Source of the DNA: a bacterium
GTDB lineage: Bacteria > SAR324 > XYD2-FULL-50-16 > G965216635
Assembly: GCA_965261475.1 (NCBI GenBank)
Contig: OZ253454.1
Location: 1,378,001 to 1,442,000 of the forward strand
Length of the DNA: 64,000 bases
Direction of reading: 5' to 3'
Below, piece by piece: positions 1,300 to 35,048 of this stretch; within the stretch, counting starts at the first letter, position 1, and each line of letters opens with the position of its first letter. The notes under the pieces are model-generated. The model was not told where the DNA came from and did not search any database. It saw nothing but the letters and a program-made list of their open reading frames with translations. Made by a program: the position numbers and the translations under genes.

Positions 1300-3993
1300 A
1301 TGAAAAAAATTATAAGATTTACAGCAGTTTATTTTTTCTTGTTTGTGATTATTCTGTATTTAGGTATAGAATATCAGGCGCAAAATTATTATCCCAAGTC
1401 CGATCAAATTGCCGATGTACTACAGAGACTCAAAAAAGATTATGTAGACTCTCAAAGACTAGAGCCTTACACAATGTTAGAGGCTACTTTAGAAAATCTT
1501 GCCCGTCATATACCTCCTGTTGTATTACAAGAACTTAAAGGCAGTCCTTTTTCTGCTGTTACTATTCAAGTAGATAAAGCAAAAAAAGAATTTATTATTC
1601 CAAAACTAAAAAATTTAGCAGACTTAGCAAACACCTTACAAAAAATAGTTATCTATATCAAACAAAACCTCCCAAAAGAAAAAGATTTAAAAAACATAGA
1701 CTATGTAGCTATTAATGGATTTCTATCTGTTTTAGACCCTTATACTTCATTATTAGTCCCTGAAGTTTATACAGAATTTCGTGAAGATACAGATGGGAAT
1801 TATAGCGGAGTAGGAATGTATATTGGAATTAGAGACACAAAATTACAGGTTATTTCACCTATCTTTAACTCTCCTGCCTATAAAGCAGGTATAAAAGCTA
1901 AAGATATTATTTTGCAAATCAACGAAGAATCTACAATTAACATGAGCACTGGTACTGCTTCTTCTAAAATCAAAGGATTAGAGGGTACAAAAGTAAATTT
2001 ACTAATCCAAAGAAAAGAATTTAATAAACCAAAAAATTTTGCAATAACTAGAGCGCGTATATCATTAACAAGTGCTAATGCTTTAGAGCTAAAAACAAAA
2101 GAAGGAAGAATTGGCTATCTATCTATTTCCCGATTTCACCAAAAAACAGCTAAAGAAGTAGAGACAGCACTAAAAAAACTGAAAATAAATTATTCTGACT
2201 TTCAAGGAATTATTTTAGATTTAAGAAATAATCCAGGAGGCATCTTACAACAAGCAGTCAAAGTCAGTGATAAGTTTCTAGCACAAGGCAGGATTGTAAC
2301 CACCGCTGGGATATCTAACAAACCAAGAATTGCTTACAACGCTAGGGGAAGTAATAGCATCATAAATACTCCTATTATCATCTTAATGAATGGAGGCTCT
2401 GCTTCGGCAGCAGAAATTCTTGGCGCTGCACTTAAACAAAATAAAAGAGCCATTGTTTTAGGGACAACAAGCTTCGGCAAAGGCTCCGTACAACAATTAA
2501 GACAATTTCAAGATGGTTCTGCTTTAAAACTAACCATTGCTAAATATCTTACTCCTAATAATAACTCTTTGCACTCCATAGGTATTACTCCGCATATTGA
2601 GGTAAACCCTTGGATTATTGACGGCAATAGCATCAATATTATTAACAACAAGGAGTTAAATGCTAACAAAAAAGATAAATTTGCAGAGTGGGGAGGCGTT
2701 CCAGATAAACCAATTCGTTCATTTAACTATCTATTTGATAAAGATTTTCAACACAATATTTTTAGCACTAGCGAGCAAAAACAAGACATTGCAGGATTTG
2801 ATATAGATGGTTTAAAAAAGGATTATTTACTTTATTTTGCTAGCAAAATACTAGAAACTAGTAAAGTAAAAGATTTACCAACACTATCGCAAACAGTAAT
2901 TGCGACTACAAAATTAGAGGAGCAAATACAAAATACCAAACTTAAAAAAAAATTAGAAGAGATTGGTATTTCTTGGAGACAAAAACTACAAGGAACTAGC
3001 GAAGTAGAAGTTAAATTTTGGGTAGAAAAAAAAAGACAAAACAACGAAGCTTGTTTGCAAGCCAGAAAGGATCGCATACAAGCTGGTGATGAAATTTATC
3101 TTTGTGTAGTATTAAAAAATACTACCAAACAAGAAACTATAAGATTACAAGCAACTGGAAATTCTCCATATCCTATTTTTAATAAAAAACAATTCGTCTT
3201 TGGCAATATTCCTGCTGGGAAGACAAAAAAATGGTTTGTCCCTGTCAATATTCCTGCCTACTTTGCTAATGCAGACATTCCTTTTACTATTAAGCTCCTA
3301 GACTTTGAAGAAAAAGAGATTATTGCTCATCAATTCTTCTTTAATATTAACCAAATTCCTCAACCTCAATTTCAGTATTCATTGAAAGCTTATAGCAAAA
3401 CTAGCAAAATAGAAGCTCCTAATTCTATAAAATTAGATATACAAATTTTTAATAAATCAAATGTAGATTCTGGTAAATTAAATATATCGCTTAAAAATGG
3501 AGAAGGTAAAAAAATTTTTCTTACAGCTGCTAAAGACACGGTAAATAGTTTAGCAAAAAAAAATCAGAAAAAATCAGAATTTAAATTTGATTTAAAACAT
3601 TCTATTCCCGATGGGGCAATTGATTTATCATTTTCTTTATTGGACTCCAAATATAACAAACATATTACTCATAACTTTACTATTCCTTATGGAGCTGAAG
3701 GAACGCAAACCATCACTAATTCTGCACCTAGTATTAACATCAAAAGTTATCCTCTACAAACCAAAAAAGAAAAAATTACTTTAGAATTTACTAGTGAAGA
3801 TGACAAAAAAATAAAAGATTTTTATATCTTTGCCAATGACAAAAAAGAATTTTATCGTAGTTTTGGCAAACAAAAAATTTTACATGATATTGCAATTAAG
3901 TTAAAAACAGGTTTAAATAAAATAATATTTTTTAGTCGTGATAATTATGATGTCACTACCTTGCAACAAATTTATATTTATAGACAAAACTAA
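1300..3993 (+). CDS. Tail-specific (C-terminal processing) protease, S41 family, with a roughly 450-aa Lys/Asn-rich C-terminal extension
   Basis: 897 aa with N-terminal signal/TM segment, a PDZ-like segment (GVGMYIGIRD...SPAYKAGIKAKDIIL) and the S41 catalytic region (ILDLRNNPGG, MNGGSASAAEILG, GTTSFGKGSVQ). The C-terminal half is low-complexity with no recognisable catalytic motif. Confidence 0.7.
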   Translation: MKKIIRFTAVYFFLFVIILYLGIEYQAQNYYPKSDQIADVLQRLKKDYVDSQRLEPYTMLEATLENLARHIPPVVLQELKGSPFSAVTIQVDKAKKEFIIPKLKNLADLANTLQKIVIYIKQNLPKEKDLKNIDYVAINGFLSVLDPYTSLLVPEVYTEFREDTDGNYSGVGMYIGIRDTKLQVISPIFNSPAYKAGIKAKDIILQINEESTINMSTGTASSKIKGLEGTKVNLLIQRKEFNKPKNFAITRARISLTSANALELKTKEGRIGYLSISRFHQKTAKEVETALKKLKINYSDFQGIILDLRNNPGGILQQAVKVSDKFLAQGRIVTTAGISNKPRIAYNARGSNSIINTPIIILMNGGSASAAEILGAALKQNKRAIVLGTTSFGKGSVQQLRQFQDGSALKLTIAKYLTPNNNSLHSIGITPHIEVNPWIIDGNSINIINNKELNANKKDKFAEWGGVPDKPIRSFNYLFDKDFQHNIFSTSEQKQDIAGFDIDGLKKDYLLYFASKILETSKVKDLPTLSQTVIATTKLEEQIQNTKLKKKLEEIGISWRQKLQGTSEVEVKFWVEKKRQNNEACLQARKDRIQAGDEIYLCVVLKNTTKQETIRLQATGNSPYPIFNKKQFVFGNIPAGKTKKWFVPVNIPAYFANADIPFTIKLLDFEEKEIIAHQFFFNINQIPQPQFQYSLKAYSKTSKIEAPNSIKLDIQIFNKSNVDSGKLNISLKNGEGKKIFLTAAKDTVNSLAKKNQKKSEFKFDLKHSIPDGAIDLSFSLLDSKYNKHITHNFTIPYGAEGTQTITNSAPSINIKSYPLQTKKEKITLEFTSEDDKKIKDFYIFANDKKEFYRSFGKQKILHDIAIKLKTGLNKIIFFSRDNYDVTTLQQIYIYRQN

Positions 3994-7582: not shown

Positions 7583-9016
7583 TCAGTAAGCCATGCCAAA
7601 TAACACCTTGTATTTAGATTGTGCTTGAGAATAAATACATTTTTGAGTACTAGTCTCTGCTAAAATCAAACGAATAGTAGCTTTGGTTTCTGCTTGAATT
7701 TTTAGAGCAGTTTCGTGGCTTCCATCCCAATAGGCTTCTACTGCACAAGCTTCTTGTTCAAATACTCTCTTCATTTCTTCGTAATCTTGTAATTCTAGCC
7801 TATTGCTTTTTTGAAAATCTAACGCTTTTTTAAAAAGATTATCGTGCAACATTGCTAGCTGCTCTTTAGCAACAAGAGCAACTTTTGATAAATTGGTAGT
7901 AATTTTTGCTTTGCTATCTCTTTTGACTAAAACACAAGTTTCGCTCTCAAGCTCTCTCACTCCGATTTCTATTCTGAGCGGAATACCTTTTTGTATCCAA
8001 TAAAAAAACCTATCAATTGGTCTTTGATGCGTTTGATTATCTGTGTGTATTAGTAAAAAATCAAATCTTTCTGTCAGTCTTTGTAAAACTTTTTTTGTAT
8101 ATTCCATAACTCTCACTTGGTCTGCTTGTTTGTGAAAAATAGGAATTAACACAATTTGTGTGCTAGCTATTTTTGGTGGTAAAATTAACCCATCGTTGTC
8201 TCCGTGTGCCATAATAACTCCTCCTATCATACGAGTAGAAACTCCCCAGCTAGTTGTCCAAGCTAATTCTATTTGATTCTTGCGATTAAGAAATTTAATA
8301 CCAAAAGCATTAGCAAAATTTTGCCCTAAATTATGAGAAGTACCAGATTGTAGAAACTTGGTATCCTGCATCATTGCTTCCAAAGTATAAGTTTCTAGTG
8401 CACCAGGGAACTTTTCGTGCTCTGGTTTTTTACCTGTGATTACTGGGATTGCACAATAGTCTTCTAAAAAAGTACGATAAACTTCAAGCATCTTTAAGGT
8501 TTCAGCTCTAGCTTCTTGCAAAGTTTCGTGTGCTGTATGTCCTTCTTGCCACAAAAACTCTGCCGTCCTCAAAAACAACCTAGTACGCATTTCCCAGCGA
8601 AATACATTGCACCACTGGTTAATTAAAATAGGTAAATCACGGTAACTCTTCAGCCACTTAGCATACATATGCCCTATAATTGTTTCAGAAGTAGGACGAA
8701 TTGCTAAAGGTTCGGCTAATTTATTACCACCTCCGTGTGTGACAACAGCTAATTCTGGAGAAAATCCATCTATATGCTGACTTTCTTTTTTTAGAAAGCT
8801 ATCTGGAATAAGTAAAGGAAAATACGCATTTTGATGCCCTGTTTCTTTGAACATTCTATCCAAAATAGATTGCATTTTCTCCCAAATTGCAAAACCTGTA
8901 GGTCTAATAACCATACAACCCCTAACTGGTGCATAATCTGCTAACTCACCTGCTTGGATCACATCTAAATACCATTGAGAAAAATTTTGCTCTTGTGGAG
9001 TAATATTTTTTGCCAT
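7583..9016 (-). CDS. proS: Prolyl-tRNA synthetase, archaeal/eukaryote-like short form (no insertion editing domain)
   Basis: 477 aa class II aaRS; N-terminus (FSQWYLDVIQAGELADYAPVRGCMVIRPTGFAIWE) and overall length match the eukaryote-type ProRS architecture. Confidence 0.85.
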   Translation of the reverse strand: MAKNITPQEQNFSQWYLDVIQAGELADYAPVRGCMVIRPTGFAIWEKMQSILDRMFKETGHQNAYFPLLIPDSFLKKESQHIDGFSPELAVVTHGGGNKLAEPLAIRPTSETIIGHMYAKWLKSYRDLPILINQWCNVFRWEMRTRLFLRTAEFLWQEGHTAHETLQEARAETLKMLEVYRTFLEDYCAIPVITGKKPEHEKFPGALETYTLEAMMQDTKFLQSGTSHNLGQNFANAFGIKFLNRKNQIELAWTTSWGVSTRMIGGVIMAHGDNDGLILPPKIASTQIVLIPIFHKQADQVRVMEYTKKVLQRLTERFDFLLIHTDNQTHQRPIDRFFYWIQKGIPLRIEIGVRELESETCVLVKRDSKAKITTNLSKVALVAKEQLAMLHDNLFKKALDFQKSNRLELQDYEEMKRVFEQEACAVEAYWDGSHETALKIQAETKATIRLILAETSTQKCIYSQAQSKYKVLFGMAY

Positions 9017-9108
9017 TATCTATTAGAATAATTGATTTTTATTCAAGTAAAAGAGTACACTATAAAATAAAATTTTGTACTATAATTCTAGCTTTGGTGC
9101 TTTTTGTA

Positions 9109-9714
9109 ATGTCTCTTCCCATTGTTGTTATTCTCTCAGGACCCTCTGCTGTAGGGAAAACTACAATTGCAGATATTTTGTTAAAATGTAATAAAAATTT
9201 TGCAAGAATTATCACTTGTACCTCTAGAGAGCCTCGTAGTAATGAAACAAATTATATTTTTTTATCAAAAAAAGAATTTAAAGAAAAAATTAAAAAAAAT
9301 TGCTTCATAGAATACTCTAAAGTATATAAAAATTACTATGGTATTTTGCAAAGTGAGTTTGAAAAAGCCTACAAACAATTTACCTACTCCTTGATAGTGA
9401 TAGATACTGTAGGCTCTTTAAAACTTATAAAGTACTGCAAACAAAACAAAATTACCTATAAGAGTATTTTTTTAACTCTTCGAGATAAAGAGCAAATAAA
9501 AGAAAGATTGCTAGCAAGAGAAAAACAAGAAAACCAATTTACCACAGATAAAAAAGCAAATATCAAAAAAAGGATAAAGGCGATGACAAAAGAATTACAA
9601 ACTGCTCAATTTTTTGATAAACAAATTTATAATCAAGATTTACAAACATGCGTACTGGAAATCCAAAAATTTATAACTGCCACTAGTAGCAACAAAGACC
9701 AAATAAAAACTTAA
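9109..9714 (+). CDS. gmk: Guanylate kinase
   Basis: P-loop SGPSAVGKTT followed by the TSREPRSNE...YIF and NYYGI motifs typical of Gmk. The track ORF starts at 9010, but that adds a 33-aa hydrophobic extension overlapping the proS start; the internal Met at 9109 (MSLPIVVILSGPS) is the more plausible start. Confidence 0.7.
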   Translation: MSLPIVVILSGPSAVGKTTIADILLKCNKNFARIITCTSREPRSNETNYIFLSKKEFKEKIKKNCFIEYSKVYKNYYGILQSEFEKAYKQFTYSLIVIDTVGSLKLIKYCKQNKITYKSIFLTLRDKEQIKERLLAREKQENQFTTDKKANIKKRIKAMTKELQTAQFFDKQIYNQDLQTCVLEIQKFITATSSNKDQIKT

Positions 9715-9724
9715 CTCAAAGCTT

Positions 9725-11488
9725 ATGGATAAGAGTTTTGTTTTTATAAAAATTAAAGTTCTGATTTTCTTCTGTGCTCTTGCTCTGAGTGCTTGCGCAA
9801 AAGGAAGTAAGACATCTACGAATATAAACAATTGTAGTGCTACAAATTCCCTACTTACCTTTGATAATAATACCTCTGATGAGATTCTAAACCCTAAGAG
9901 CAATCCTTTGTATGCTCAGCAGTGGCATCTAAAAAATACAGGTCAAAAAGCTTTTGCAGAAAATCCAGGAACAGCAGGTGTAGATTTACGCTTGGACGGA
10001 GTATTGCAAACCGGCAGAGGTGTGGTAGTCAATGTTGTAGATACTGGACTAGAAATTTGCCACGAGGATCTAAGGAATAACATTGCACCAGGCTCTGTAA
10101 ATTTTCTCGATAATAGCAATGATCCAACAAATATCAAAGATACAACTGGCGATCACGGCACTAGTGTTGCAGGCTTGATAGCAGCAGCAGCAAATAATGT
10201 AGGAGGTCTAGGAGTAGCGCCTGATGCGAGTTTGATAGCCCACAATTTTTTAGCTGCTCAAAGTTCTGCTAATTTTATAACTTCTATACTAGCAAATGCA
10301 GATATAGTAAACCAAAGTTTTGGTAGAGATAATACAGATGATTTTAGACCAGAAGACTCTGTTATAACAGCTTACAAAGAGGGAGTGACCAACAAAAGAA
10401 ATCGTAAAGGAATTGTTTATCTAAAATCTGCTGGCAATGGCTTTCAAAAAGAAGAAGAGAACCCTTACTGCATAGCAGAACTGACCTGTCATAATGCAAA
10501 TATGGACCCTGTGCACACTTACCCTTATAACATTATCATAGCTGCTATCAACGCCCAGGGAGAAAGGGCTTCTTATTCTACTGCGGGCGCTGCTATTTTA
10601 CTCAGTGGATTTGGTGGGGAAGATGGCGAAAACTACCCCGCTATGATTACTACAGATCAAAGCGGCTGCCATCAAGGCTACTCAAGGACAATTCAAAGAC
10701 GAAATCAATTGTATACCAATAGTAGAATTCCTATTTCACTAGATGTAAATTGTAACTATACTAGTACTTTTAACGGTACCTCCTCAGCTGCACCAGTGGT
10801 TGCTGGCGTAGTAGCTTTGATGTTGGAGACAAACCCCGAGTTAACTTGGCGAGATGTTAGACATATTTTAATCAAGACCGCTCGTAAGATAGACCCTACT
10901 AGGGATGCTTTGTATTACCGTGATATAACAACGCAAAACATACCTAATCTCAACGATGCTACCGTAGAACTAGGTTGGACAACAAACAAAGCAGGTTTAG
11001 AGTTTCATAATTGGTATGGTTTTGGTTTAGTAGATGCGAGCAATGCTATTAAAATGGCTAGGGGTTATAGTGCTGATTTAGGTAATTTTCAAGAGCGCAC
11101 AACTGATTTTTTATCTGTTAATAGCATTATCCCAGACGCCAGCACAAAAGGTATAACAAGTAAAATTGAATTTAGATACTCTGTAAGAAGCATTGAGTCT
11201 GTACAAATTGATATCAAAATTACTCATAAGTTTACAGCAGATTTAGGAATTTTTCTAGAATCACCACAAGGTACAACAAGTTTACTATTAAATTTTGCCA
11301 ATGCTTTTGCAGACACAGATAATTTAAATATGCTACTAGCAAGTCAAGCATTTTACGGCGAACAATCTAGTGGAACTTGGAAACTAAAAGTTATAGATTA
11401 CGTAGACAAAGACATTGGCACTTTGGATAAATGGAACTTAAAAATTTATGGGCACTACCAGAAACTACCTCAGCAGATAGTACCTTAA
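9725..11488 (+). CDS. Subtilisin/kexin-like serine protease (S8) lipoprotein with C-terminal proprotein-convertase P-domain
   Basis: 587 aa. Lipoprotein signal with lipobox (ALALSAC). Catalytic triad motifs DTGLE (Asp), HGTSVAGLIAA (His), GTSSAAPVVAGVVALM (Ser). C-terminal roughly 130 aa resembles the P/homo-B domain. Confidence 0.7.
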   Translation: MDKSFVFIKIKVLIFFCALALSACAKGSKTSTNINNCSATNSLLTFDNNTSDEILNPKSNPLYAQQWHLKNTGQKAFAENPGTAGVDLRLDGVLQTGRGVVVNVVDTGLEICHEDLRNNIAPGSVNFLDNSNDPTNIKDTTGDHGTSVAGLIAAAANNVGGLGVAPDASLIAHNFLAAQSSANFITSILANADIVNQSFGRDNTDDFRPEDSVITAYKEGVTNKRNRKGIVYLKSAGNGFQKEEENPYCIAELTCHNANMDPVHTYPYNIIIAAINAQGERASYSTAGAAILLSGFGGEDGENYPAMITTDQSGCHQGYSRTIQRRNQLYTNSRIPISLDVNCNYTSTFNGTSSAAPVVAGVVALMLETNPELTWRDVRHILIKTARKIDPTRDALYYRDITTQNIPNLNDATVELGWTTNKAGLEFHNWYGFGLVDASNAIKMARGYSADLGNFQERTTDFLSVNSIIPDASTKGITSKIEFRYSVRSIESVQIDIKITHKFTADLGIFLESPQGTTSLLLNFANAFADTDNLNMLLASQAFYGEQSSGTWKLKVIDYVDKDIGTLDKWNLKIYGHYQKLPQQIVP

Positions 11489-11551: not shown

Positions 11552-11581
11552 TTGACATTTTGTTTTTTCCTATGCTATGCT
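11552..11581 (+). promoter_or_regulatory. Candidate sigma70-type promoter for nuoLMN (TTGACA-N18-TATGCT)
   Basis: TTGACA at 11552-11557 and TATGCT at 11576-11581, about 30 bp upstream of the nuoL start; -10 is weak and the spacer is 18 nt. Confidence 0.2.
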
Positions 11582-11609: not shown

Positions 11610-13517
11610 ATGTTGCTTTTTGCTATCTTATCTCCTCTTGTAGGTTTTTTTTTGCTCTTCTTACTCGGCAAAAATTTATCTTTTATACAACAGGGTTATT
11701 TAGCCTGTTGTAGTGTTTTTTTTTCTTTCCTTGCTTTTTGTTACCTTTTTTTTAATTTCTCTCTTACCAAGACACCTATTAACTACAATCTATTTACTTG
11801 GTTGGAATTAAGAGGATTGAGCGTTTCTTTTGGATTCTTATTGGATAACTTAAGTTTTGTAATGGTACTAATTATTACAGGAATAGGCTTACTTATTCAT
11901 TTTTATTCCATTGGATATATGAAAAACGAAGAAAGCTCTTATCGTTATTTTAGTTTTCTTAATCTATTTATTTTTTTTATGCTTTTGTTAGTCATAGCTA
12001 ATAATTTAGTATTGCTGTTTCTAGGTTGGGAAGGAGTAGGCTTATGTTCCTACCTGCTAATAGGGTTTTATTTAGAAAAAAAAACAGCTAGCAAAGCTGC
12101 CAAAAAAGCCTTTATAGTCAATCGTATTGGAGATTTTTGTTTTGTGATAGCCCTCATGCTAGTTTTTTTTATGTTTGGATCCTTTGATTTTTGGACCATA
12201 CAAACAGAATTTAACAAAACTACTTTTGAGCAAGAATTAATTTTACTAACTACTTTGATGTTATTTTTAAGCGCTACAGGAAAATCTGCGCAAATACCAC
12301 TGCATATTTGGCTACCAGATGCTATGGAAGGACCAACTCCCGTATCAGCTCTTATTCACGCAGCAACTATGGTAACAGCAGGTATCTATCTCATAGCTAG
12401 ATTGCATTTTCTTTTTATTGCTGCAGAAACTACACTTTTTCTTATGCTAATCATAGGCTCTTTGACAGCTTTGTTAGGTGCAGCAGTAGCTATAGTACAA
12501 ACAGACCTAAAAAAAATTCTTGCCTATTCTACTATTAGTCAATTAGGTTATATGTTTATGGCTTTGGGAGTAGGAGCCTTTTCAACTGCTATTTTTCATT
12601 TATTAACTCACGCTTTTTTCAAAGCTCTGTTATTTTTAAGTGCAGGAGCTTTGATTTATGCCTTGTACCACGAACAAGATATTCGTAATATGGGTAGGCT
12701 AAAATCAAAAATGCCTTTGATTTGGAGTGCTTTTGCCGTAGGCAGTTGGTGCTTAACAGGATTACCTTTAGCTGCTGGTTTTTTTAGCAAGGATGAAATT
12801 TTATTTTCGGTGTTTCTAGGATCTATGCGTTTTCCACTCTTTTTTGTTATAGGTATTTTTACCAGTCTCCTCTCAGCTATTTATACCTACCGTATGATGA
12901 ATTTAGTTTTTTACTCTAATGAGAGAAAAACACACAAAATCAAAAAAATACCTAAAACTATGCAAGCAGTGTTACAAATTTTGATTTTAGGCTCTGTGAG
13001 TGTAGGGTTTTTAGGAGTTCCCCATTTCTTAGAAAAAATCCATTTACAAAATATATTTGCTCATTATTTCCACTCATTTTTTACCGAAAAAGCCTTGCCT
13101 ACAACAGATGTTGCCTTTCTCTCAACAAACCTCAGTCCTCTAATGAAAGAATTTTTTGTTTTAGGATTGTCAGTCTTTGTCTCAGGTTTAGGAATGCTAT
13201 GGATGTATTACAAATACTGCCACAAAGACTGGAAAATAGCTCAACGAACGAATTACATACACTATATTTTACAAAAAAAATTCTTTATTGAAGAATTCTA
13301 TTATGGAATCATCATACTTCCCTTAAAAACAATCTCTCAAAATATCTTCTTAAGATGGGGTGAGCAAAAATTTATGAGATGGAACTTACAAATTTTTAGC
13401 CAATCGGCTCTATTTGTTGGCTCTTTGCTAAGTTCTTGGCACAACGGCAAACTCTTTCGCTATACACTAACAATGCTGTTTGGAATTGTAGCAATAGTAT
13501 ATTTTTTTATTTTTTAA
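11610..13517 (+). CDS. nuoL: NADH-quinone oxidoreductase subunit L
   Basis: 635 aa polytopic membrane protein; strong match to the NuoL/ND5 core (LGWEGVGLCSYLLIGFY, HAATMVTAGIYL). Confidence 0.85.
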   Translation: MLLFAILSPLVGFFLLFLLGKNLSFIQQGYLACCSVFFSFLAFCYLFFNFSLTKTPINYNLFTWLELRGLSVSFGFLLDNLSFVMVLIITGIGLLIHFYSIGYMKNEESSYRYFSFLNLFIFFMLLLVIANNLVLLFLGWEGVGLCSYLLIGFYLEKKTASKAAKKAFIVNRIGDFCFVIALMLVFFMFGSFDFWTIQTEFNKTTFEQELILLTTLMLFLSATGKSAQIPLHIWLPDAMEGPTPVSALIHAATMVTAGIYLIARLHFLFIAAETTLFLMLIIGSLTALLGAAVAIVQTDLKKILAYSTISQLGYMFMALGVGAFSTAIFHLLTHAFFKALLFLSAGALIYALYHEQDIRNMGRLKSKMPLIWSAFAVGSWCLTGLPLAAGFFSKDEILFSVFLGSMRFPLFFVIGIFTSLLSAIYTYRMMNLVFYSNERKTHKIKKIPKTMQAVLQILILGSVSVGFLGVPHFLEKIHLQNIFAHYFHSFFTEKALPTTDVAFLSTNLSPLMKEFFVLGLSVFVSGLGMLWMYYKYCHKDWKIAQRTNYIHYILQKKFFIEEFYYGIIILPLKTISQNIFLRWGEQKFMRWNLQIFSQSALFVGSLLSSWHNGKLFRYTLTMLFGIVAIVYFFIF

Positions 13518-13518
13518 A

Positions 13519-15000
13519 ATGGACCTATTAAGTCTGATTTTATTTCTACCTGTAATAGGAGCATTATTCTTAAGTTGCATACCTCAAAATAAAACCTATC
13601 CCCTTAAAATTGTTGGTTTGATATTTCAAATATCAACTTTTTGTATCGGATTTTATGTACTATATTTATTCCAAAATTTGGAAAATAGCCCTCAATTTGC
13701 GGTTAAATATAATTGGATTTCTTATTTTGGTGTTTTTTATGCCTTAAAACTAGATGGCTTAAGCTTTGTGTTAATTGCGATTACGCTGATTTTATTTCCT
13801 CTAGTCAGTTTAGGTTGTTGGAGTGTGACTCTAAAACAAGAAAAATGGCTATGGATCAATATTTTAATTTTAGAAACCGGTCTACTTGGAGTTTTTCTCT
13901 CTGCAGATATATTTTTATTTTATTTTTTTTGGGAGACTGTGCTCATTCCTATGTATTTTATTATTGTCCTTTGGGGAGAAGCCAAAAGAGTAAAAGCAGC
14001 TATAGAATTTTTTATTTATACTATGGCGTCCTCTTTTTTTATGTTGTTTGCTATTTTTTTACTAGCAATTATTTCATACTACCAACTAGGAGTAGCAAGT
14101 TTTGATTTAGAAATATGGAAAACATTACAACTTGGCACACTAGAGCCTTACTTTTTTTGGGCTTTTTTTATTCCTTTTGCAGTCAAAATTCCTCTGTTTC
14201 CATTTCATTCTTGGATGCCTGCTGTATACAAAAATGCACCTTGGATAGGCACTATATTTTTATCAGCCCTACTCTCTAAGATGGGTATCTATGGACTGCT
14301 TCGTATTGTCATTCCTCTTTTTCCATTATCCGTACAAAATTACAGTTCTTTAATTTTAACCCTCTCCTTAATTAGTATTTTATACTGTGCTACAGTTGCT
14401 ATAGTGCAAAAAGATTTAAAAATGGTTATTGCTTATTCTTCGGTATCACATTTGGGTATGATTGTTCTTGGAATTTTTGCTTTACATCTTTTTACTTGGA
14501 GCGGGGCGATTTTACAAATCATTAATCACTCCGTTACCACAGCTGCGATATTTTTACTGTTGGGGTTACTAGGCTATCATTTTAAATCCACAAAAATAGG
14601 AGATTTTTACGGATTAGCAAAAACTACTCCTAAACTTTGTGTTTTCTTTTTTATATTCACCCTTTCTGCTATTGGGTTTCCTAGCACAGGTAGCTTTGTA
14701 GGAGAGCTCTTTATCTTTTTAGGAAGTTTTCAAACTGTATTATATTTTGCAATTTTTGCTGCTTTAGGTGTTATTCTTTCTGCGGTTTATATGCTAAGAA
14801 TCAACCAAAAAATATTCTTTGGTGCCACACACAAGCAAATCTTTGCTACAAAAAAAGATTTAAACCTGCGAGAAATTTTAGCTCTACTACCTTTAATAGT
14901 AATTATTTTTTGGATAGGAATTTACCCTAAATTCTTGCTAAGTAATTTTGAAATTTATGTTCAACAAAATTTGAGCAATTTATTAATACGATTTTTATAA
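13519..15000 (+). CDS. nuoM: NADH-quinone oxidoreductase subunit M
   Basis: 493 aa, antiporter-like membrane subunit, starts 2 bp after nuoL; NuoM/ND4-like motifs (FFWETVLIPMY, HSWMP). Confidence 0.85.
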   Translation: MDLLSLILFLPVIGALFLSCIPQNKTYPLKIVGLIFQISTFCIGFYVLYLFQNLENSPQFAVKYNWISYFGVFYALKLDGLSFVLIAITLILFPLVSLGCWSVTLKQEKWLWINILILETGLLGVFLSADIFLFYFFWETVLIPMYFIIVLWGEAKRVKAAIEFFIYTMASSFFMLFAIFLLAIISYYQLGVASFDLEIWKTLQLGTLEPYFFWAFFIPFAVKIPLFPFHSWMPAVYKNAPWIGTIFLSALLSKMGIYGLLRIVIPLFPLSVQNYSSLILTLSLISILYCATVAIVQKDLKMVIAYSSVSHLGMIVLGIFALHLFTWSGAILQIINHSVTTAAIFLLLGLLGYHFKSTKIGDFYGLAKTTPKLCVFFFIFTLSAIGFPSTGSFVGELFIFLGSFQTVLYFAIFAALGVILSAVYMLRINQKIFFGATHKQIFATKKDLNLREILALLPLIVIIFWIGIYPKFLLSNFEIYVQQNLSNLLIRFL

Positions 15001-15002
15001 AA

Positions 15003-16448
15003 ATGCCTCTATTATCTTTTAATTTAATTGCAGCAGAAATTTGGTTATTAGCTATAGGATTTGTCATTCTAATCGTAGACATGTTTTTTGCACCTAATAA
15101 AAAATGGATTCATTGTTTGAGTGTTGCGTCTATGTTAGTTGCAATAGTTTGGTTAATTGCTAATTTTTTTTTAGAAACACAAGGTTTTTATGGATTTTTA
15201 GCTACTAATACTTGGAATAATTCTTTGAAGATTTTACTAATTATTGCTACAGCTATTTGTGTCTTACTCAGTCCTCCTGTACTAGAACAAAACAAAATAC
15301 ACAGCTCTGAATTTTATTTTTTATTGCATGTAGTACTAGTTAGTATGTTATTTTTAACGGATAGCTTGCACCTATTTTTTATCTATATCTGTTTAGAAAC
15401 AGCTTCCATAACTTCCTTTATACTTTGTAGCTTAAATACAAACAACAAACTTGCTGTCGAGGGAGGGATGAAATACTTTTTACTCAATGCTTTTGCTTCT
15501 GCTATTTTACTCTACGGAATTACTCTACTATTTGGAGCAACAGGAAGTTTTAATTTATTACAAATACATAGTAGTTTCCTTGCTGCCAACTCCGTTGATA
15601 GCATAGCTATACTAGGTATTTTATTTTTGGTAGTAGGCTTTGGATTTAAAATTGCTCTAGTTCCCTTTCATATGTGGACTCCAGATATTTATGCTAGTTC
15701 TGCTTTAACGATCACTGCTTTTTTTTCTACTCCTATGAAAATAGCCTTTATTGCTATCTTTGTAAAAATATGTATAGTAGCTTTGATTACCTATTTTCAA
15801 CTTTTAGAATGGATGTTAGGTATTCTCTTAGTGCTTACCTTGATAGTAGCTAACCTACTTGCCCTAGTGCAAAAAGATATAAAAAGAATACTAGCTTATT
15901 CCTCTATTTCGCATGCGGGTTTTTTGATACTAGGAATTTTGAATATTCCAACAGGAGGCATAACCTCTTTATATTTTTATTTTATTACCTATATTTTTGC
16001 ATCGTTGGGAGTATTTGCTTGTCTAATTTATCTCACAGGAAAAAAAGAAGTTATTTGTTTAGATGACTTAACGGGATTAGGCTCCAAGCATCCTCTAGTT
16101 TCTAGTATTTTTATTTTTTTTCTCTTTAGTCTTGCAGGTTTGCCTATTACGGGTGGATTTATTGCCAAACTAATCTTGTTTTACAACGCACTACAAGCCG
16201 GCTATTTAGGAATAGTTATTATTGGCTTGCTAGCTAGCATAATTTCTACAGGCTACTATCTCAAATTAGGAATACAACTTTTCTCTCCGTCTATGACAAA
16301 AATTAATTCTGCTCAAGAAATCAATATTCGCTCTCAGTTTGTCTTGTGTTGTTGTGTAATTGTCTTGCTTGTTTTGGGTATTTTCCCTTCTGTCTTAGAT
16401 TGGAATATCGAGCTTATTCAAGGAAAATTACTCTTTTCTTTTTTATAA
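15003..16448 (+). CDS. nuoN: NADH-quinone oxidoreductase subunit N
   Basis: 481 aa membrane protein 2 bp after nuoM; NuoN/ND2-like (FKIALVPFHMWTPD). Confidence 0.8.
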   Translation: MPLLSFNLIAAEIWLLAIGFVILIVDMFFAPNKKWIHCLSVASMLVAIVWLIANFFLETQGFYGFLATNTWNNSLKILLIIATAICVLLSPPVLEQNKIHSSEFYFLLHVVLVSMLFLTDSLHLFFIYICLETASITSFILCSLNTNNKLAVEGGMKYFLLNAFASAILLYGITLLFGATGSFNLLQIHSSFLAANSVDSIAILGILFLVVGFGFKIALVPFHMWTPDIYASSALTITAFFSTPMKIAFIAIFVKICIVALITYFQLLEWMLGILLVLTLIVANLLALVQKDIKRILAYSSISHAGFLILGILNIPTGGITSLYFYFITYIFASLGVFACLIYLTGKKEVICLDDLTGLGSKHPLVSSIFIFFLFSLAGLPITGGFIAKLILFYNALQAGYLGIVIIGLLASIISTGYYLKLGIQLFSPSMTKINSAQEINIRSQFVLCCCVIVLLVLGIFPSVLDWNIELIQGKLLFSFL

Positions 16449-26414: not shown

Positions 26415-26765
26415 TTAAACATTTTTACCTAATTTACTTCCTATAAAAGCTCCTATTACTGGAATAAAAGACGATACCAAACATAAAACAACAGGTTGTA
26501 GCCAAAAATTTAAATAATAGAAAAAAATATAAACCCAAGGAATGACTATAATATATCCACTATAAATATAAATTTTATGATATAAACTCCTTGCACTATA
26601 AATAAAATAAACTAAAAAGGCAGAAGAAATAATACCAACAACACTATAGATAAAAAAATTCGTTATGTATTCTGATTTTGTTAAACTATTTTGTATTTGC
26701 AAAACAAAAATAGTTAGTAAAGGCCAAGCTAAAGCTACAAAAAAAAAAAGAAAAATCTTAATCAT
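26415..26765 (-). CDS. Hypothetical small membrane protein directly downstream of rpoC
   Basis: 116 aa, 3-4 hydrophobic helices; starts 5 bp after the rpoC stop on the same strand. Confidence 0.3.
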   Translation of the reverse strand: MIKIFLFFFVALAWPLLTIFVLQIQNSLTKSEYITNFFIYSVVGIISSAFLVYFIYSARSLYHKIYIYSGYIIVIPWVYIFFYYLNFWLQPVVLCLVSSFIPVIGAFIGSKLGKNV

Positions 26766-30917: not shown

Positions 30918-33900
30918 CTAAATATCTTCCATAATTTCTTGAGCTTTAGCCCTAGAGTCCCCTACTAGCTCTAAATCTATACACAAAGATCGTAACTCAT
31001 TAACTAAGACTTTAAAGGATTCTGGGATCCCTGATTCGTAATGCAAATCTCCTTTGACAATAGCTTCGTACACCTTATTCCTGCCAAAAATATCATCAGA
31101 TTTTACAGTTAATAACTCCTTTAAAATAAAAGCTGCTCCGTAAGCCTCCAAAGCCCATACTTCCATTTCGCCAAATCTTTGTCCACCAAAATGAGATTTT
31201 CCTCCTAAAGGCTGTTGAGTAACTAAAGAATAGGGTCCAGTCGACCTAGCATGTAATTTATCATCAACCAAATGGTAAAGTTTACACATATACTTATAGC
31301 CAATTGTTACTTTTTGCTTGAATTTTTCTCCTGTTTGCCCATCGTACAAAGCGACTTTTCCAGAATAATCCATACCACAAAGATCCATAAGTCTACGTAT
31401 ATCAGTTTCTTTTGCTCCATCAAAAACAGGAGTGGCAAAATAAACACCATTTCTTAGTTTATTAAAGAAGACAACTAATCCATCGTCATCTAAACTGTCT
31501 AAATACTGATTTATATAATTTGATTGATAAATTTCTTTGACAAATTTTTTGATTTCATCATAAGACACCATAGTTGTTAGCATTTGATCAATTTTATCAC
31601 CCAAATGTTTAGAAATCATGCCAAGATGGGTTTCTAACAACTGTCCAATATTCATACGAGATGGTACGCCCAACGGATTTAAGATCAAATCAATAGGTTC
31701 TCCATCCTCTGTATGTGGCATATCCTCAACGGGTAAAATCTTAGAAACAACACCTTTATTCCCGTGTCTGCCAGACATTTTATCACCTACAGAAAGTTTT
31801 CTTTTCATAGCAATATAAACCTTAACAATCTGATTAACTCCCTGAGGCAAATCTTCTAGTCTTCTTTTATTCTCTATTTGATTACGATATTTGCTATTAA
31901 CTGTTTCTGCTTGTTTCTGCATTTTTTGCAGTAGTGCAACTAATTCTTTGTTTTTTACTTCGTTTTCTACACAAATACCGATAAAACTCTCAATAGGCAA
32001 TTTTAATAGTTCATCTACATTGATGAGAGATTTTTTAGCAAGCACAACCTTTTGAGTTTTGGTATTAACAATATCATATTTTAATTTTTCACCCTCTAGG
32101 AGATTTTTGTGTTTATTGATAAAGTTGCTCTTTAGAATAAAAAGCTCATCTTGATTGTCTTTATCAATATTGCTAATCATCTCTTCTTCAATTTTAATAG
32201 TAGAAGATTTTTTTTCTACGCCTCTTCTATTAAAAACTTTAACATCCATAACTATACCTCTTACTCCTTGTGGAACTTTTAGAGAGCTATCTCTAATATC
32301 AGCAGCTTTATCTCCAAAAATTGCCCGTAATAATTTTTCTTCAGGGTTAAGCTGAGATTCTGTTTTAGGCGTAGTTTTACCAACCAAAATATCTCCTGTT
32401 TTTACATAACATCCAATACGTACAATTCCAGATTCGTCTAAATTTCTTAACCTGTACTCGCTAGAAGACGGGACATCTCGGGTAATATGCTCTCTACCAA
32501 TTTTTGTATCTCTAGCAGATGTTTCAAATTTTTCTATATGCACGGAAGTAAAAACATTATTGTGTAGCAATCTTTCGCTAACTACCAAAGAATCTTCATA
32601 ATTAAAACCATTCCAAGACATAAAAGCTACCTTAACATTTTTTCCAAGAGCTAATTCTCCAGACTCACAAGCTGGACCATTAGCAATAATTTGTCCTTTT
32701 TGAATTTTATCGCCTTTTGCTACTAATGGAATTTGATTGATACAAGTATTTTGATTGGTTCTATCATATTTTTGCATCCTATAAATAACAATGTCAAAAG
32801 GATTATCCTTAGAAACCGTGTTTTCCATTATAATTTTAGTAGCATCTACAAAACGCACTACTCCGCTTTTTTCAGCAAGTACACAAACACCAGTAGTTTG
32901 TGCTATCAATGCTTCCATACCAGTTCCTACAAAAGGAGCTTCAGGAATAGCCAAGGGAACAGCTTGCCGTTGCATATTAGAGCCCATTAAAGCGCGATTT
33001 GCATCGTCATGTTCCAAAAATGGAATTAAGGAAGCAGCCACAGAAACGAGTTGGTGTGGCGATAAATCAATCCATTCTGCCCACTCTCTAGGCTGTGATT
33101 TAAACTCACTATTTTTCCTCAGAGTGATCATTTCTTTAATAAATCTTTCTTTTTTATCTAATAAAGCGTTAGATTGAGCAATATAAAAATTACTATCATC
33201 TAAGGCGGACATGTACTTAACTTCATTAGTTAATTGCATATCTTTGACCTTTCTATAAGGAGTTTCAATAAATCCAAACTCATCAAGTTTGGCATAAATA
33301 GTAAAACTAGACATAAGTCCAATACTTGGTCCTTCTGGAGTTTCAATCGGACAAATCCTTCCGTAATGCGAAGGATGAACGTCTCTCACCTCAAACCCAG
33401 CTCTATCTCGACTCAATCCGCCAGGACCCAAAGCACTCAATCTTCTCTTATGCGTCATTTCAGACAGAGGATTGGTTTGCTCCATAAATTGAGACAATTG
33501 ATTAGTAGCAAAAAAGTCATGTATAACACCAGTAATCAATTTTACATTAAACAATTCATTCAAACTGGTATTTTCCTCTCCCAAGAAAACCATTTTTTCT
33601 TTGATATTTTTTTCTATACGAAACATTCCTTTGTTAAAACATTGACCTAACAGCTCTCCTACATCTTTGACTCTTCTATTTTTTAAATTATCTATGTCAT
33701 CTAGCACCATTTTACCTTTCCTTAAAAGAAAAAGACGCGCGACTGTCTCAAAAAGATCATCATGATCTAATGTGACTTTATCTATAGATTGGTTCTTACC
33801 AAATTTTTTATTAAATTGCATTCTTCCTATTTTAGAAAGGCTATAAAATTGCTCATCAAATAAAAAAGATTTAACAAAACTCTTGCTTTTTTCTAAATTA

Positions 33901-35048
33901 ACAATGGAAGTTTTTAATTTTTTATAAATTTCAATTGCTGCATCGTCTATTGAAGTAATTTTATCCTGCAATATAGTGTTTCTCAAAGCAGCATCCATAG
34001 TGTCGCTTTCTAGTAAAAAATAATTTATATTTTTTACTTTGTTTGCTAAGAATTTTTCTAAAAGCTCTAGCGTAATAATTTCATTGAATTTAGCAATGGT
34101 TTCTCCGTTTGCACTAATAACATCCTTGAGTATAGCAGCTCCTAAAAAATCTTCTTTTGAAACCTCTATTAGTTTTTTGCGAATATTTTGGAATTTTTCT
34201 ACATCTCCAGCTTTCCATCTATCTCCTTTGAGTCCAATTACTTTATAGGTTGCCCCATCTAAAATATCCTGAGTAATTTTAGTATTTTCTTTAATTTTTC
34301 CATCAAAATTCTTGTAAAATTTTTTATCAGACAAAATTAATTCTCCTACAGGGTAAAATCTTTCTATTATTTCTGGGCAAGTATAGCCTAGCGCTTGAAA
34401 AAAAGTAGATACTAAGAGCTTCTTTTTTCTATCTATTTTAACATTTAAAATATCCTTAGAATCAAATTCAAAATCTAACCAAGAGCCTCGTTGCGGGATA
34501 ATAGCGGCTATAAAAACTTGTTTGCGACTAACTACTGGTTTTTTATTTTCTAAGAAAAATACTCCCGGAGAGCGATGAAGTTGGCTAACAATTACCCTCT
34601 CTGTGCCATTGACAATAAAATATCCCGAAGGTGTCATTAAAGGAAAATTGCCAAAAAATATTTCATCTTCCTTAACTTCCTGTATTTTAAGATTAGCAGT
34701 AAGATGTTCTTGTGCTAACTCATAGGTAATCAATCTAAGTTTGATCCAGATTGGAATAGTGTAGGTAGCACCTCTGTTTTTACATTCTTCACGAGAATAT
34801 CGTGGCTCTGCTAGTCTATAAGAAATATATTCTATCTTAAATCTTGAGTTAGAATTAGCAATAGGAAAGACATTATTAAAAATAGCTTCCATGCCAATTT
34901 TTGCTCTATCAGCAGGCTCTTTGCTTCGTTGTATAAATCCCTCATAGGCTTCTGTTTGTACGCTTACAAGGTTTGGAGAGCTGGTTATATTTTTTATTTT
35001 ACTAAAATCAACCCTGATGCGCAAAGCATTTTCTATGTTTTGTATCAT
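30918..35048 (-). CDS. rpoB: DNA-directed RNA polymerase subunit beta
   Basis: 1376 aa; conserved beta-subunit blocks throughout (GPGGL...RDVHPSHYGRICPIETPEGP, NMQRQAVPL, GQRFGEMEVWALEAYGAA). Confidence 0.95.
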   Translation of the reverse strand: MIQNIENALRIRVDFSKIKNITSSPNLVSVQTEAYEGFIQRSKEPADRAKIGMEAIFNNVFPIANSNSRFKIEYISYRLAEPRYSREECKNRGATYTIPIWIKLRLITYELAQEHLTANLKIQEVKEDEIFFGNFPLMTPSGYFIVNGTERVIVSQLHRSPGVFFLENKKPVVSRKQVFIAAIIPQRGSWLDFEFDSKDILNVKIDRKKKLLVSTFFQALGYTCPEIIERFYPVGELILSDKKFYKNFDGKIKENTKITQDILDGATYKVIGLKGDRWKAGDVEKFQNIRKKLIEVSKEDFLGAAILKDVISANGETIAKFNEIITLELLEKFLANKVKNINYFLLESDTMDAALRNTILQDKITSIDDAAIEIYKKLKTSIVNLEKSKSFVKSFLFDEQFYSLSKIGRMQFNKKFGKNQSIDKVTLDHDDLFETVARLFLLRKGKMVLDDIDNLKNRRVKDVGELLGQCFNKGMFRIEKNIKEKMVFLGEENTSLNELFNVKLITGVIHDFFATNQLSQFMEQTNPLSEMTHKRRLSALGPGGLSRDRAGFEVRDVHPSHYGRICPIETPEGPSIGLMSSFTIYAKLDEFGFIETPYRKVKDMQLTNEVKYMSALDDSNFYIAQSNALLDKKERFIKEMITLRKNSEFKSQPREWAEWIDLSPHQLVSVAASLIPFLEHDDANRALMGSNMQRQAVPLAIPEAPFVGTGMEALIAQTTGVCVLAEKSGVVRFVDATKIIMENTVSKDNPFDIVIYRMQKYDRTNQNTCINQIPLVAKGDKIQKGQIIANGPACESGELALGKNVKVAFMSWNGFNYEDSLVVSERLLHNNVFTSVHIEKFETSARDTKIGREHITRDVPSSSEYRLRNLDESGIVRIGCYVKTGDILVGKTTPKTESQLNPEEKLLRAIFGDKAADIRDSSLKVPQGVRGIVMDVKVFNRRGVEKKSSTIKIEEEMISNIDKDNQDELFILKSNFINKHKNLLEGEKLKYDIVNTKTQKVVLAKKSLINVDELLKLPIESFIGICVENEVKNKELVALLQKMQKQAETVNSKYRNQIENKRRLEDLPQGVNQIVKVYIAMKRKLSVGDKMSGRHGNKGVVSKILPVEDMPHTEDGEPIDLILNPLGVPSRMNIGQLLETHLGMISKHLGDKIDQMLTTMVSYDEIKKFVKEIYQSNYINQYLDSLDDDGLVVFFNKLRNGVYFATPVFDGAKETDIRRLMDLCGMDYSGKVALYDGQTGEKFKQKVTIGYKYMCKLYHLVDDKLHARSTGPYSLVTQQPLGGKSHFGGQRFGEMEVWALEAYGAAFILKELLTVKSDDIFGRNKVYEAIVKGDLHYESGIPESFKVLVNELRSLCIDLELVGDSRAKAQEIMEDI

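What the first reader, a model, noticed from the sequence alone, without database searches (positions are those of the whole stretch)
9725..11488. Kexin/proprotein-convertase-like subtilisin lipoprotein directly upstream of nuoLMN
The protein pairs an S8 catalytic domain with a C-terminal P (homo-B) domain, the architecture of eukaryotic proprotein convertases, and carries a lipoprotein signal (lipobox ...LSAC). P-domain subtilisins occur in bacteria but are not core housekeeping genes, and this one sits between gmk and a respiratory-complex operon. It may process surface or secreted substrates, which would be relevant to a host-associated or predatory lifestyle.
Basis: partly seen in the sequence, partly recalled or inferred. 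Interest (0 to 1): 0.45.

Follow-up and report, generated by a model that had tools for sequence, protein, structure and literature searches.

The report
Lipid-anchored ASP/kexin-type subtilisin protease
The gene is real and encodes a membrane-tethered serine protease built like yeast kexin and human furin, but it is an ordinary member of a very large bacterial family whose solved example is the Aeromonas sobria protease ASP, and its place next to the respiratory genes nuoLMN looks incidental.

Summary
Observation confirmed. ORF 9725-11488 (+, 587 aa) has a Peptidase_S8 domain (E=2e-40) followed by a P/homo-B domain (E=2.8e-21). Asp106, His144, Ser353 and Asn238 are invariant in 36 homologues. 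A rule-conforming lipobox (LSA|C24) is present. The AlphaFold model matches ASP, Kex2 and furin over both domains.

The closest solved relative is bacterial ASP/AspA (MEROPS S08.125; E=4e-83), not kexin or furin (about 1e-32). The family is large: 2,423 hits at E<=1e-10, and all 120 listed carry both domains.

Like ASP, the protein has no propeptide, only a 34-residue linker. Unlike ASP, it is lipid-anchored and lacks the occluding insertions that include Arg-566. It also has no ORF2 chaperone gene nearby, whereas a Bermanella relative keeps a gene matching the ORF2 family directly downstream.

Kex2's acidic S2 and S4 residues are absent, so dibasic convertase specificity should not be assumed.

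The gmk-protease-nuoLMN order holds in the one close relative examined (89% identity). At 52-54% identity the gene sits elsewhere and occurs as paralogues.

Verdict: new member of a known kind. Low interest.

The parts
9725..11488 (+). Complete gene for a 587-aa lipoprotein subtilase of the S8B / ASP-like type
   Evidence: ORF list. Pfam S8 plus P_proprotein. Best PDB match is ASP 3HJR, E=4e-83. An identical protein is on record on a 1.60-Mb contig.
9725..9796 (+). Lipoprotein signal peptide, residues 1-24: n-region MDKSFVFIKIK, hydrophobic core, lipobox LSA|C24
   Evidence: Passes the PROSITE-like lipoprotein rule. Of the three 82-89% relatives, P0002 and P0003 keep LSAC and pass the rule; P0004 has VSTC and fails the strict rule. 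The same rule is passed by 14 of 36 aligned family members, and others have non-canonical boxes or truncated N-termini.
9797..9898 (+). 34-residue Asn/Ser/Thr-rich tether (residues 25-58). No propeptide.
   Evidence: Composition. pLDDT below 50. No prodomain family hit in the whole protein or in residues 1-62. Alignment to the mature Kex2 chains begins at about residue 59-60.
9899..11059 (+). Subtilase catalytic domain (residues 59-445)
10040..10042 (+). Catalytic Asp106 (GAT)
   Evidence: Invariant in 36/36. Aligns with the ASP VVDDG motif. Codon checked.
10154..10156 (+). Catalytic His144 (CAC)
   Evidence: Invariant in 36/36. Aligns with the ASP and Kex2 HGT motif.
10436..10438 (+). Oxyanion-hole Asn238 (AAT)
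   Evidence: Invariant in 36/36. Lies in the AGNGF motif, aligned with the ASP AGNGF and Kex2 SGNGG motifs.
10781..10783 (+). Catalytic Ser353 (TCC)
   Evidence: Invariant in 36/36. Aligns with ASP Ser336, the residue changed to Ala in the 3WQB chain.
10505..10507 (+). Asp261, candidate S1-pocket acidic residue
   Evidence: Aligns with Asp247 of ASP. Conserved in 32/36. Its equivalence to Kex2 Asp325 is my inference from the motif, not a tool result.
11060..11455 (+). P / homo-B domain (residues 446-577), all-beta sandwich
   Evidence: Pfam P_proprotein. Nine predicted strands, 10-residue block pLDDT 76-95. Foldseek covers both domains of ASP, Kex2 and furin. Lacks ASP insertions 511-522 and 560-582.
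11552..11581 (+). Promoter-like site (TTGACA, 18 nt, TATGCT, TG-extended) in the 121-bp spacer before nuoL. Context, not part of the protease gene.
   Evidence: This is a consensus match only; the region has no more such sites than shuffled sequence.
9010..9714 (+). Guanylate-kinase-like gene ending 10 bp before the protease start codon. Probable co-transcription partner (context).
   Evidence: The orthologue in L018 is called as 212 aa.

Best explanation
The gene encodes an active, envelope-tethered endoprotease of the ASP/AspA branch of the kexin subfamily (MEROPS S8B).

Proposed route. The precursor is exported. It is lipidated on Cys24 and cut between Ala23 and Cys24 by the lipoprotein pathway. 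Because residue +2 is Ala rather than Asp, it is probably passed to the outer membrane; the window encodes LptF/G-family and KdsB-like cytidylyltransferase proteins, so the cell is a diderm with LPS. A 34-residue flexible tether holds the enzyme to the membrane. The enzyme is a subtilase domain (Asp106/His144/Ser353, oxyanion Asn238) buttressed by a C-terminal P-domain beta-sandwich, as in Kex2, furin and ASP.

Proposed specificity. By homology with ASP, and from the conserved Asp261 in the presumed S1 pocket, it most likely cuts after Lys or Arg. It lacks Kex2's acidic S2/S4 residues and ASP's occluding loop with Arg-566. I therefore expect an open cleft and looser subsite selectivity than a true convertase.

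Proposed role. Cleavage of external or envelope proteins, for peptide supply or attack on foreign proteins, rather than dedicated precursor maturation. It has no functional tie to nuoLMN.

Shown: gene, domains, catalytic residues, lipobox, fold, family size, variable synteny. Inferred: lipidation, outer-membrane sorting, P1 preference, physiological role.
For: - Domains and triad.
- Two-domain fold match to ASP (TM 0.73), Kex2 (target TM 0.81) and furin (target TM about 0.80).
- Closest solved relative is ASP at E=4e-83, against about 1e-32 for kexin and furin and about 1e-15 for subtilisins.
- With the family profile, ASP scores E=4.7e-144 from about residue 22 to 595.
- Lipobox rule is met and recurs in the family.
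- Diderm markers LptF/G-family and KdsB-like cytidylyltransferase.
- No propeptide.
- S2/S4 residues differ from Kex2 (D176 to T107, D210/D211 to T141/G142, E255 to a Ser beside a 5-residue deletion).
- ASP cleaves Boc-Glu-Lys-Lys-MCA, and Arg-566 selects the P3 residue: PMC5638518.
- The insertion carrying Arg-566 is absent.
- Large family (2,423 hits at E<=1e-10, all 120 listed with S8 plus P).
- Paralogues and shifting locations in relatives.
- Highest dN/dS among nine neighbouring genes (0.51 against 0-0.38), as expected for an exposed protein that is still under purifying selection.
Against: - No substrate is known and no activity was measured.
- The model is weak (pLDDT below 50) for residues 300-351, a loop beside the active site that also varies by indels among close relatives. 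Cleft geometry is therefore uncertain.
- Asp261 is Asn in the two nearest relatives P0002 and P0004, so a basic-P1 preference is not secure.
- Outer-membrane sorting from the +2 rule is extrapolated from E. coli to a lineage whose RpoB is only about 50% identical to that of any named taxon.
- How a subtilase with neither a propeptide nor a nearby ORF2-type chaperone folds is unexplained.
Confidence: 0.6

Rival explanations
1. It is a genuine convertase-type maturase. The tethered enzyme makes limited, site-specific cuts after basic residues in the bacterium's own secreted or surface precursors (toxins, adhesins, other lipoproteins), as Kex2 and furin do in the secretory pathway.
For: Same two-domain fold as Kex2 and furin. 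A candidate S1 Asp is conserved in 32/36. ASP itself is selective enough to be described in the literature as a member of the kexin family of subtilases (reference list of PMC5638518). Retention in 1.5-1.6-Mb genomes suggests the gene matters.
Against: Kex2's acidic S2/S4 residues are not conserved, and position 107 is Thr or Ser in 28/36 family members. There is no prodomain. No gene travels with it across L018, L019 and L020. Paralogue expansion and the highest dN/dS in the neighbourhood fit an outward-facing, diversifying enzyme better than a dedicated maturase.
Confidence: 0.22
2. The protease is functionally coupled to the adjacent nuoLMN genes, for example in assembly or turnover of the complex I membrane subunits. 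On this view the gene order gmk-protease-nuoLMN is an operon with shared function.
For: Same strand, a 121-bp spacer and no predicted terminator between the protease and nuoL. The order is identical in the 89%-identical relative L018.
Against: At 52-54% identity the gene sits after rpoBC-AdoHcyase (L019), or in a tandem paralogue pair beside unrelated genes (L020). A TTGACA-18-TATGCT promoter-like site precedes nuoL. A lipoprotein faces the periplasm or the cell surface, and no known complex I assembly step uses a subtilase (my knowledge). None of the 17 more distant loci was seen to pair the protease with nuo genes in the neighbour clustering.
Confidence: 0.02
3. It is a non-catalytic remnant, serving as a binding protein or decaying as a gene.
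For: It has the highest dN and dN/dS of its neighbourhood. The 300-345 loop is indel-prone.
Against: The reading frame is intact. The triad and oxyanion Asn are invariant, and four cysteines are invariant. dN/dS of 0.51 is still below 1. The conserved core 346-445 varies at only 11% of sites among close relatives.
Confidence: 0.03

Closest known systems
Aeromonas sobria serine protease ASP / AspA (MEROPS S08.125; PDB 3HJR, 3WQB)
   Same: Best sequence and fold match (E=4e-83; profile E=4.7e-144; TM 0.73). Subtilase domain plus P-domain. No N-terminal propeptide. The same catalytic residues (query Ser353 aligns with ASP Ser336). Shared Asp in the N-x-D-P motif (query 261, ASP 247).
   Different: ASP is a soluble secreted enzyme, whereas this protein carries a lipobox. 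ASP has two P-domain insertions (511-522 and 560-582, with the P3-selecting Arg-566) that are absent here and in the family consensus. ASP needs the ORF2 chaperone encoded just downstream (PMC5638518); here the next gene is nuoL, and no ORF2-like ORF exists anywhere in the window. Foldseek-aligned identity is only about 31-32%.
Yeast kexin (Kex2) and mammalian furin / proprotein convertases (MEROPS S8B)
   Same: Same two-domain architecture and fold (target TM about 0.8). Both Pfam domains are shared. The catalytic domain starts with the conserved (D/N)PL-x-x-QWHL motif.
   Different: No prodomain. No C-terminal transmembrane or Cys-rich region; anchoring is by an N-terminal lipid instead. Kex2's acidic residues D176, D210, D211 and E255 are replaced by T, T, G and S. 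Identity is only about 24-25%. Sequence E-values are about 50 orders of magnitude weaker than to ASP.
ORF2-type external chaperones of propeptide-less subtilases (Pfam PF18492 ORF_2_N)
   Same: The downstream ORF of the Bermanella relative matches this family at 30.2 bits, just above the cutoff of 29.2. The downstream ORFs in the Bacterioplanes and SAR86 relatives match only below it.
   Different: The window protease and its close relatives (L018-L020) have no such gene nearby. Profiles of both partner types find nothing in the window (best E above 1).

Membership tests
Subtilases, MEROPS family S8 | Asp-His-Ser triad in that order plus an oxyanion-hole Asn, within the Peptidase_S8 fold | tested here: met
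   D106, H144, S353 and N238 are invariant in 36/36. Pfam PF00082 E=2e-40.
Kexin subfamily S8B | A P / homo-B domain directly after the catalytic domain | tested here: met
   PF01483 E=2.8e-21 at residues 490-574. Confident beta-sandwich in the model. Full-length fold matches to ASP, Kex2 and furin.
Kexin subfamily S8B | Catalytic domain closer to S8B members than to S8A subtilisins | tested here: met
   ASP 4e-83 and kexin/furin about 1e-32, against mirolase 9e-18 and subtilisins about 1e-15.
Eukaryotic-type proprotein convertases (Kex2, furin) | N-terminal prodomain acting as intramolecular chaperone and inhibitor | tested here: not met
   Only 34 residues lie between Cys24 and the start of the catalytic domain. 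No prodomain family hit.
Eukaryotic-type proprotein convertases (Kex2, furin) | Acidic S2 and S4 subsites that give dibasic or multibasic specificity | tested here: not met
   Kex2 D176 aligns to T107, D210/D211 to T141/G142, and E255 to Ser beside a 5-residue deletion. Thr or Ser occupies position 107 in 28/36 family members. The Kex2 residue numbers and their roles come from my knowledge of the Kex2 structures.
Eukaryotic-type proprotein convertases (Kex2, furin) | Calcium-dependent activity on defined precursor substrates | not testable with these tools
   Needs biochemistry.
ASP / AspA type (S08.125) | Propeptide-less S8B enzyme | tested here: met
   Literature definition in PMC9549277.
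ASP / AspA type (S08.125) | Operon with a downstream orf2 external-chaperone gene | tested here: not met
   A 121-bp spacer is followed by nuoL. Profiles of ORF2-like and prodomain-like partners find nothing in the window or in L018-L020. The rest of the genome could not be searched.
ASP / AspA type (S08.125) | Extra occluding region in the P-domain, including Arg-566 | tested here: not met
   ASP residues 511-522 and 560-582 are insertions relative to the query and the family profile. The role of Arg-566 is from PMC5638518.
Bacterial lipoproteins (PROSITE PS51257-type signal) | Basic n-region, uncharged hydrophobic stretch, [LVI..][AST..][GAS]-Cys lipobox with the Cys at position 15-35 | tested here: met
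   K3, then residues 14-19 uncharged, then A20-L21-S22-A23-C24. Actual lipidation is not testable here.

The most novel reading that the evidence does not exclude
In a deep-branching, reduced-genome lineage (1.5-1.6 Mb; RpoB only about 50% identical to that of any named taxon), ASP-like S8B proteases have become lipid-anchored surface enzymes. They fold with neither an intramolecular propeptide nor an ORF2-type external chaperone, have multiplied into paralogues, and evolve fast. On this reading they are the organism's main tool for attacking host or prey surface proteins. The clade would then give a third, unknown folding route for subtilases and a marker of a parasitic or predatory lifestyle.
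Probability: 0.1. Interest if true: 0.45.

Novelty: new member of a known kind. Interest (0 to 1): 0.17.

Why it matters
Mostly as a correct annotation. This is an ASP-type S8B subtilase lipoprotein, not a convertase in the functional sense, and not part of the respiratory operon.

A modest wider point comes out of the comparison. The literature treats ASP as nearly the only propeptide-less subtilase, rescued by its ORF2 chaperone. The family it belongs to is large in metagenomes. Some members, this one included, show no propeptide, and they differ in what lies next to the gene:
- an ORF matching the ORF2 family (Bermanella; weaker matches in Bacterioplanes and SAR86);
- a free-standing prodomain-like protein (weak match);
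- or nothing detectable nearby, as here.

How members of the last kind fold is an open biochemical question that can be tested.

Tried and rejected
- I looked for paralogues of the protease in the window by tblastn. There are none.
- I looked for RNA genes or regulatory RNAs in the window with Rfam. There are none.
- I looked for a terminator between the protease and nuoL. None was predicted, so read-through cannot be excluded.
- I tried to name the organism by exact-sequence look-up, which returned no names. The window's own contig could not be retrieved. GroEL and RpoB searches gave only 'Deltaproteobacteria / Proteobacteria / SAR324 / Syntrophales bacterium' MAG names, at about 78% and about 50% identity.
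- The window's own genome did not appear among the loci returned by the genome-contig scan.
- I tested whether the recurrent upstream neighbour in L004-L008 was gmk, which would have made gmk-protease an ancient pair. It is not.
- phmmer of the candidate partner ORFs against PDB did not reach ORF2 (3WQB chain B). Only the Pfam ORF_2_N model did.
- The two JBC papers on the ASP structure are not held in the library. The afdb50 fold library was unavailable.
- I rejected the idea of a functional nuoLMN link (see the rival explanations).

Full report
**1. Is it there?**

Yes. The ORF runs from the ATG at 9725 to the TAA at 11486-11488 on the + strand and encodes 587 aa. The three relatives at 82-89% identity begin with the same N-terminal motif, which supports this start codon. 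An identical protein is on record on a 1,601,439-bp contig.

Pfam finds Peptidase_S8 at residues 97-434 (E=2e-40) and the proprotein-convertase P-domain at residues 490-574 (E=2.8e-21). Both are far above their gathering scores.

**2. Anatomy**

- Residues 1-24 are a lipoprotein signal: a basic n-region (K3, K9, K11), a hydrophobic core and the lipobox L-S-A-C24. It meets a PROSITE PS51257-style rule.
- Residues 25-58 are an Asn/Ser/Thr-rich stretch that the model leaves disordered. No prodomain family matches it.
- The catalytic domain begins at about residue 59-60 with NPLYAQQWHL. This aligns with DPLFERQWHL near the start of the mature Kex2 chains.
- Asp106, His144, Ser353 and the oxyanion Asn238 are invariant in a 36-sequence alignment spanning 46-90% identity, as are four cysteines (C249, C255, C315, C343).
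- Ser353 aligns with ASP Ser336, the residue replaced by Ala in the 3WQB chain.
- The P-domain (residues 446-577) is predicted as a nine-strand beta-sandwich, with 10-residue block pLDDT values of 76-95.
- The whole model (pLDDT 71.5, pTM 0.79) matches ASP (TM 0.73), Kex2 (target TM 0.81) and furin (target TM about 0.80) over roughly 540 columns. That coverage includes both domains.

**3. Which family?**

The nearest solved relative is the Aeromonas sobria serine protease, at E=4e-83. Kexin and furin score about 1e-32, and ordinary subtilisins about 1e-15. With the family profile, ASP scores E=4.7e-144 and aligns from about residue 22 to 595.

ASP/AspA is MEROPS S08.125. The literature describes it as a propeptide-lacking member that stands apart within S8B (PMC9549277).

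The family is large. There are 2,423 proteins at E<=1e-10 among the candidates scored, and all 120 best hits carry both domains. Identity to this protein falls to about 43-54% beyond its three closest relatives. Hits come from many metagenomes and from MAGs named SAR86, Gammaproteobacteria, Burkholderiales, Bermanella and Bacterioplanes.

**4. Differences from ASP and from the convertases**

(a) Anchoring. ASP is a soluble secreted enzyme, whereas this protein has a lipobox. In the 36-sequence alignment, 14 members meet the strict lipoprotein rule. Several more have a Cys after a hydrophobic stretch followed by a poly-Gly or poly-Ser tether. Many of the rest have truncated or extended N-termini.

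(b) The occluding region. Two P-domain insertions of ASP, residues 511-522 and 560-582, are missing from this protein and from the family consensus. The second insertion holds Arg-566. Experiments reported in PMC5638518 identify that residue as the selector for the substrate P3 residue and as a contact for the ORF2 chaperone.

(c) The chaperone gene.
- ASP needs ORF2, which is encoded just downstream.
- Here the stop codon is followed by 121 bp and then nuoL.
- The Bermanella locus L010 has a signal-peptide ORF directly downstream that matches Pfam ORF_2_N at 30.2 bits, just above the 29.2 cutoff.
- The Bacterioplanes loci (L003, L015) and the SAR86/gamma MAG loci (L001, L002) have similar ORFs with weaker matches (E=5e-4 and E=0.03), below the cutoff.
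- Loci L004-L008 instead carry a conserved secreted protein of about 200 aa roughly 1 kb upstream, with a basic C-terminal tail. In the two members scanned (L005, L007) it gives a weak match to a subtilase prodomain family (E=0.002 and 0.007, below cutoff).
- Profiles of both partner types find nothing in any frame of the window or in L018-L020; the best E-values are above 1.

(d) Subsites. Kex2's acidic S2 and S4 residues are replaced: D176 by T107, D210/D211 by T141/G142, and E255 by Ser next to a 5-residue deletion. Position 107 is Thr or Ser in 28 of 36 family members. A candidate S1 aspartate, Asp261, is shared with ASP (Asp247) and present in 32/36. It is Asn in the two nearest relatives. 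Its equivalence to Kex2 Asp325 is my inference.

Together these points say that 'kexin-like' describes the fold. Dibasic convertase specificity should not be assumed.

**5. Context**

The neighbourhood is housekeeping throughout:
- upstream: S41/PDZ protease, CLC channel, DAO, proS and gmk;
- downstream: nuoL, nuoM, nuoN, groES and groEL;
- further on: argB-like kinase, M20 peptidase, 7TM-HD receptor, SLT-LysM, AdoHcyase, rpoC and rpoB, an OppA-type binding protein, dnaK, dnaJ and grpE, and LptF/G-family and KdsB-like cytidylyltransferase genes.

The window holds no paralogue of the protease and no Rfam match.

The order from CLC to groEL is identical in the 89%-identical relative L018. In the 1.46-Mb relative (RpoB 69% identical), the 52%-identical homologue follows rpoB-rpoC-ORF116-AdoHcyase, and a second paralogue lies on the same contig. 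In L020 two paralogues sit in tandem beside unrelated genes. Three homologues also share one 153-kb contig.

A TTGACA-18-TATGCT site with an extended -10 TG lies 29 nt before the nuoL start codon. No terminator was predicted.

The adjacency to nuoLMN therefore looks like shallow shared ancestry, not a functional unit.

**6. Evolutionary rate**

Between the window and L018, the protease has the highest dN (0.053) and dN/dS (0.51) of nine neighbouring genes. The others range from 0 to 0.38, and dS is 0.03-0.11 throughout.

Changes concentrate in the signal peptide, the tether, the first part of the catalytic domain and the 300-345 loop. Residues 346-445 and the P-domain are conserved. This fits an exposed protein that is still under functional constraint.

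The gene's GC content is 0.38, against 0.326 for the window. That is mildly elevated and not decisive for a foreign origin.

**7. Organism**

The organism is uncultured. GroEL is about 78-82% identical to unnamed sequences and to 'Deltaproteobacteria / Proteobacteria / SAR324' MAG sequences. RpoB has a handful of unnamed relatives at 61-69% identity, then drops to about 50% for all named taxa.

Genome sizes in the clade are about 1.46-1.60 Mb. The window encodes LPS-export and KDO-activation proteins, so the cell is a diderm.

A host-associated or predatory lifestyle is plausible for such small genomes, but nothing here tests it.

**8. Mechanism and verdict**

Most likely this is a lipid-anchored, probably outer-membrane, active endoprotease. 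It probably prefers a basic P1 residue and has an open cleft. It probably acts on external or envelope proteins.

- Confidence is about 0.6 for this overall picture.
- Confidence is above 0.9 for 'active S8B/ASP-like subtilase with a lipoprotein signal'.
- A dedicated convertase role is possible (about 0.2).
- A link to complex I is very unlikely.

It is a new member of a known and very common kind. The only mildly interesting feature is the absence of both a propeptide and a nearby external chaperone. Interest is low.

Noticed in passing
L010 7679-8212; L003 7778-8203; L015 5265-5690; L001 3438-3998; L002 7622-8182: Distant relatives of the protease (39-43% identity) have a signal-peptide ORF of 141-186 aa directly downstream. 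The Bermanella ORF passes the Pfam ORF_2_N (ASP chaperone) cutoff (30.2 against 29.2 bits); the others match weakly (E=5e-4 and 0.03). The published survey named only four other genera (Vibrio, Shewanella, Chromobacterium, Pseudoalteromonas), so the asp-orf2 arrangement extends at least to Bermanella.
   Followed up: partly
L004 4460-5074; L005 4442-5101; L006 4487-5056; L007 4379-5047; L008 4191-4805: A conserved secreted protein of about 200-220 aa lies about 1 kb upstream of the protease in five MAG loci. It ends in a basic tail (for example RLRRPRVQWR). The two members scanned (L005, L007) match the Fervidolysin N-prodomain family weakly (E=0.002 and 0.007, below cutoff). It could be a free-standing prodomain acting in trans. 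L007 has a second partial copy at about 8969-9427.
   Followed up: partly
window 11610-16448: nuoL, nuoM and nuoN stand alone between the protease and groES. None of the ORFs of at least 100 aa that were scanned in the 64-kb window is another nuo gene, so the complex I genes are split in this genome or only the antiporter-like subunits are kept together.
   Followed up: no
window 30918-35048 (rpoB): RpoB is only about 50% identical to any named taxon, with a few unnamed relatives at 61-69%. This is a deep, poorly sampled, small-genome lineage (1.46-1.6 Mb, about 33% GC).
   Followed up: partly
window 26415-26765 (-): A 116-aa ORF with no Pfam match lies between rpoC and the AdoHcyase gene. A 116-aa gene with no Pfam hit occupies the same position in the 1.46-Mb relative (L019 6378-6728), which suggests a conserved unknown gene.
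   Followed up: no
window 1300-3993 (+): An unusually long (897 aa) S41 C-terminal-processing-type peptidase with a PDZ domain. The recognised domains cover only residues 179-435, so about 460 C-terminal residues are unassigned.
   Followed up: no
window 35789-37522 (-): An OppA/DppA-type periplasmic peptide-binding protein (SBP_bac_5). It is compatible with peptide uptake downstream of extracellular proteolysis, but it is 24 kb away and no link was shown.
   Followed up: no
window 46595-47128, 47160-47879, 62212-62814 (all -): Three ORFs of 177-239 aa have no Pfam match at E<=0.001.
   Followed up: no
window 48315-50453 (-): A type III glutamine synthetase (GSIII_N plus catalytic and C-terminal domains), a form with a patchy taxonomic distribution.
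   Followed up: no
window 10622-10759 (protease residues 300-345): The loop next to the catalytic serine is Arg-rich (TIQRRNQLY), poorly modelled, and shortened by deletions in P0002 and P0003. It could be a specificity or autoprocessing loop.
   Followed up: partly
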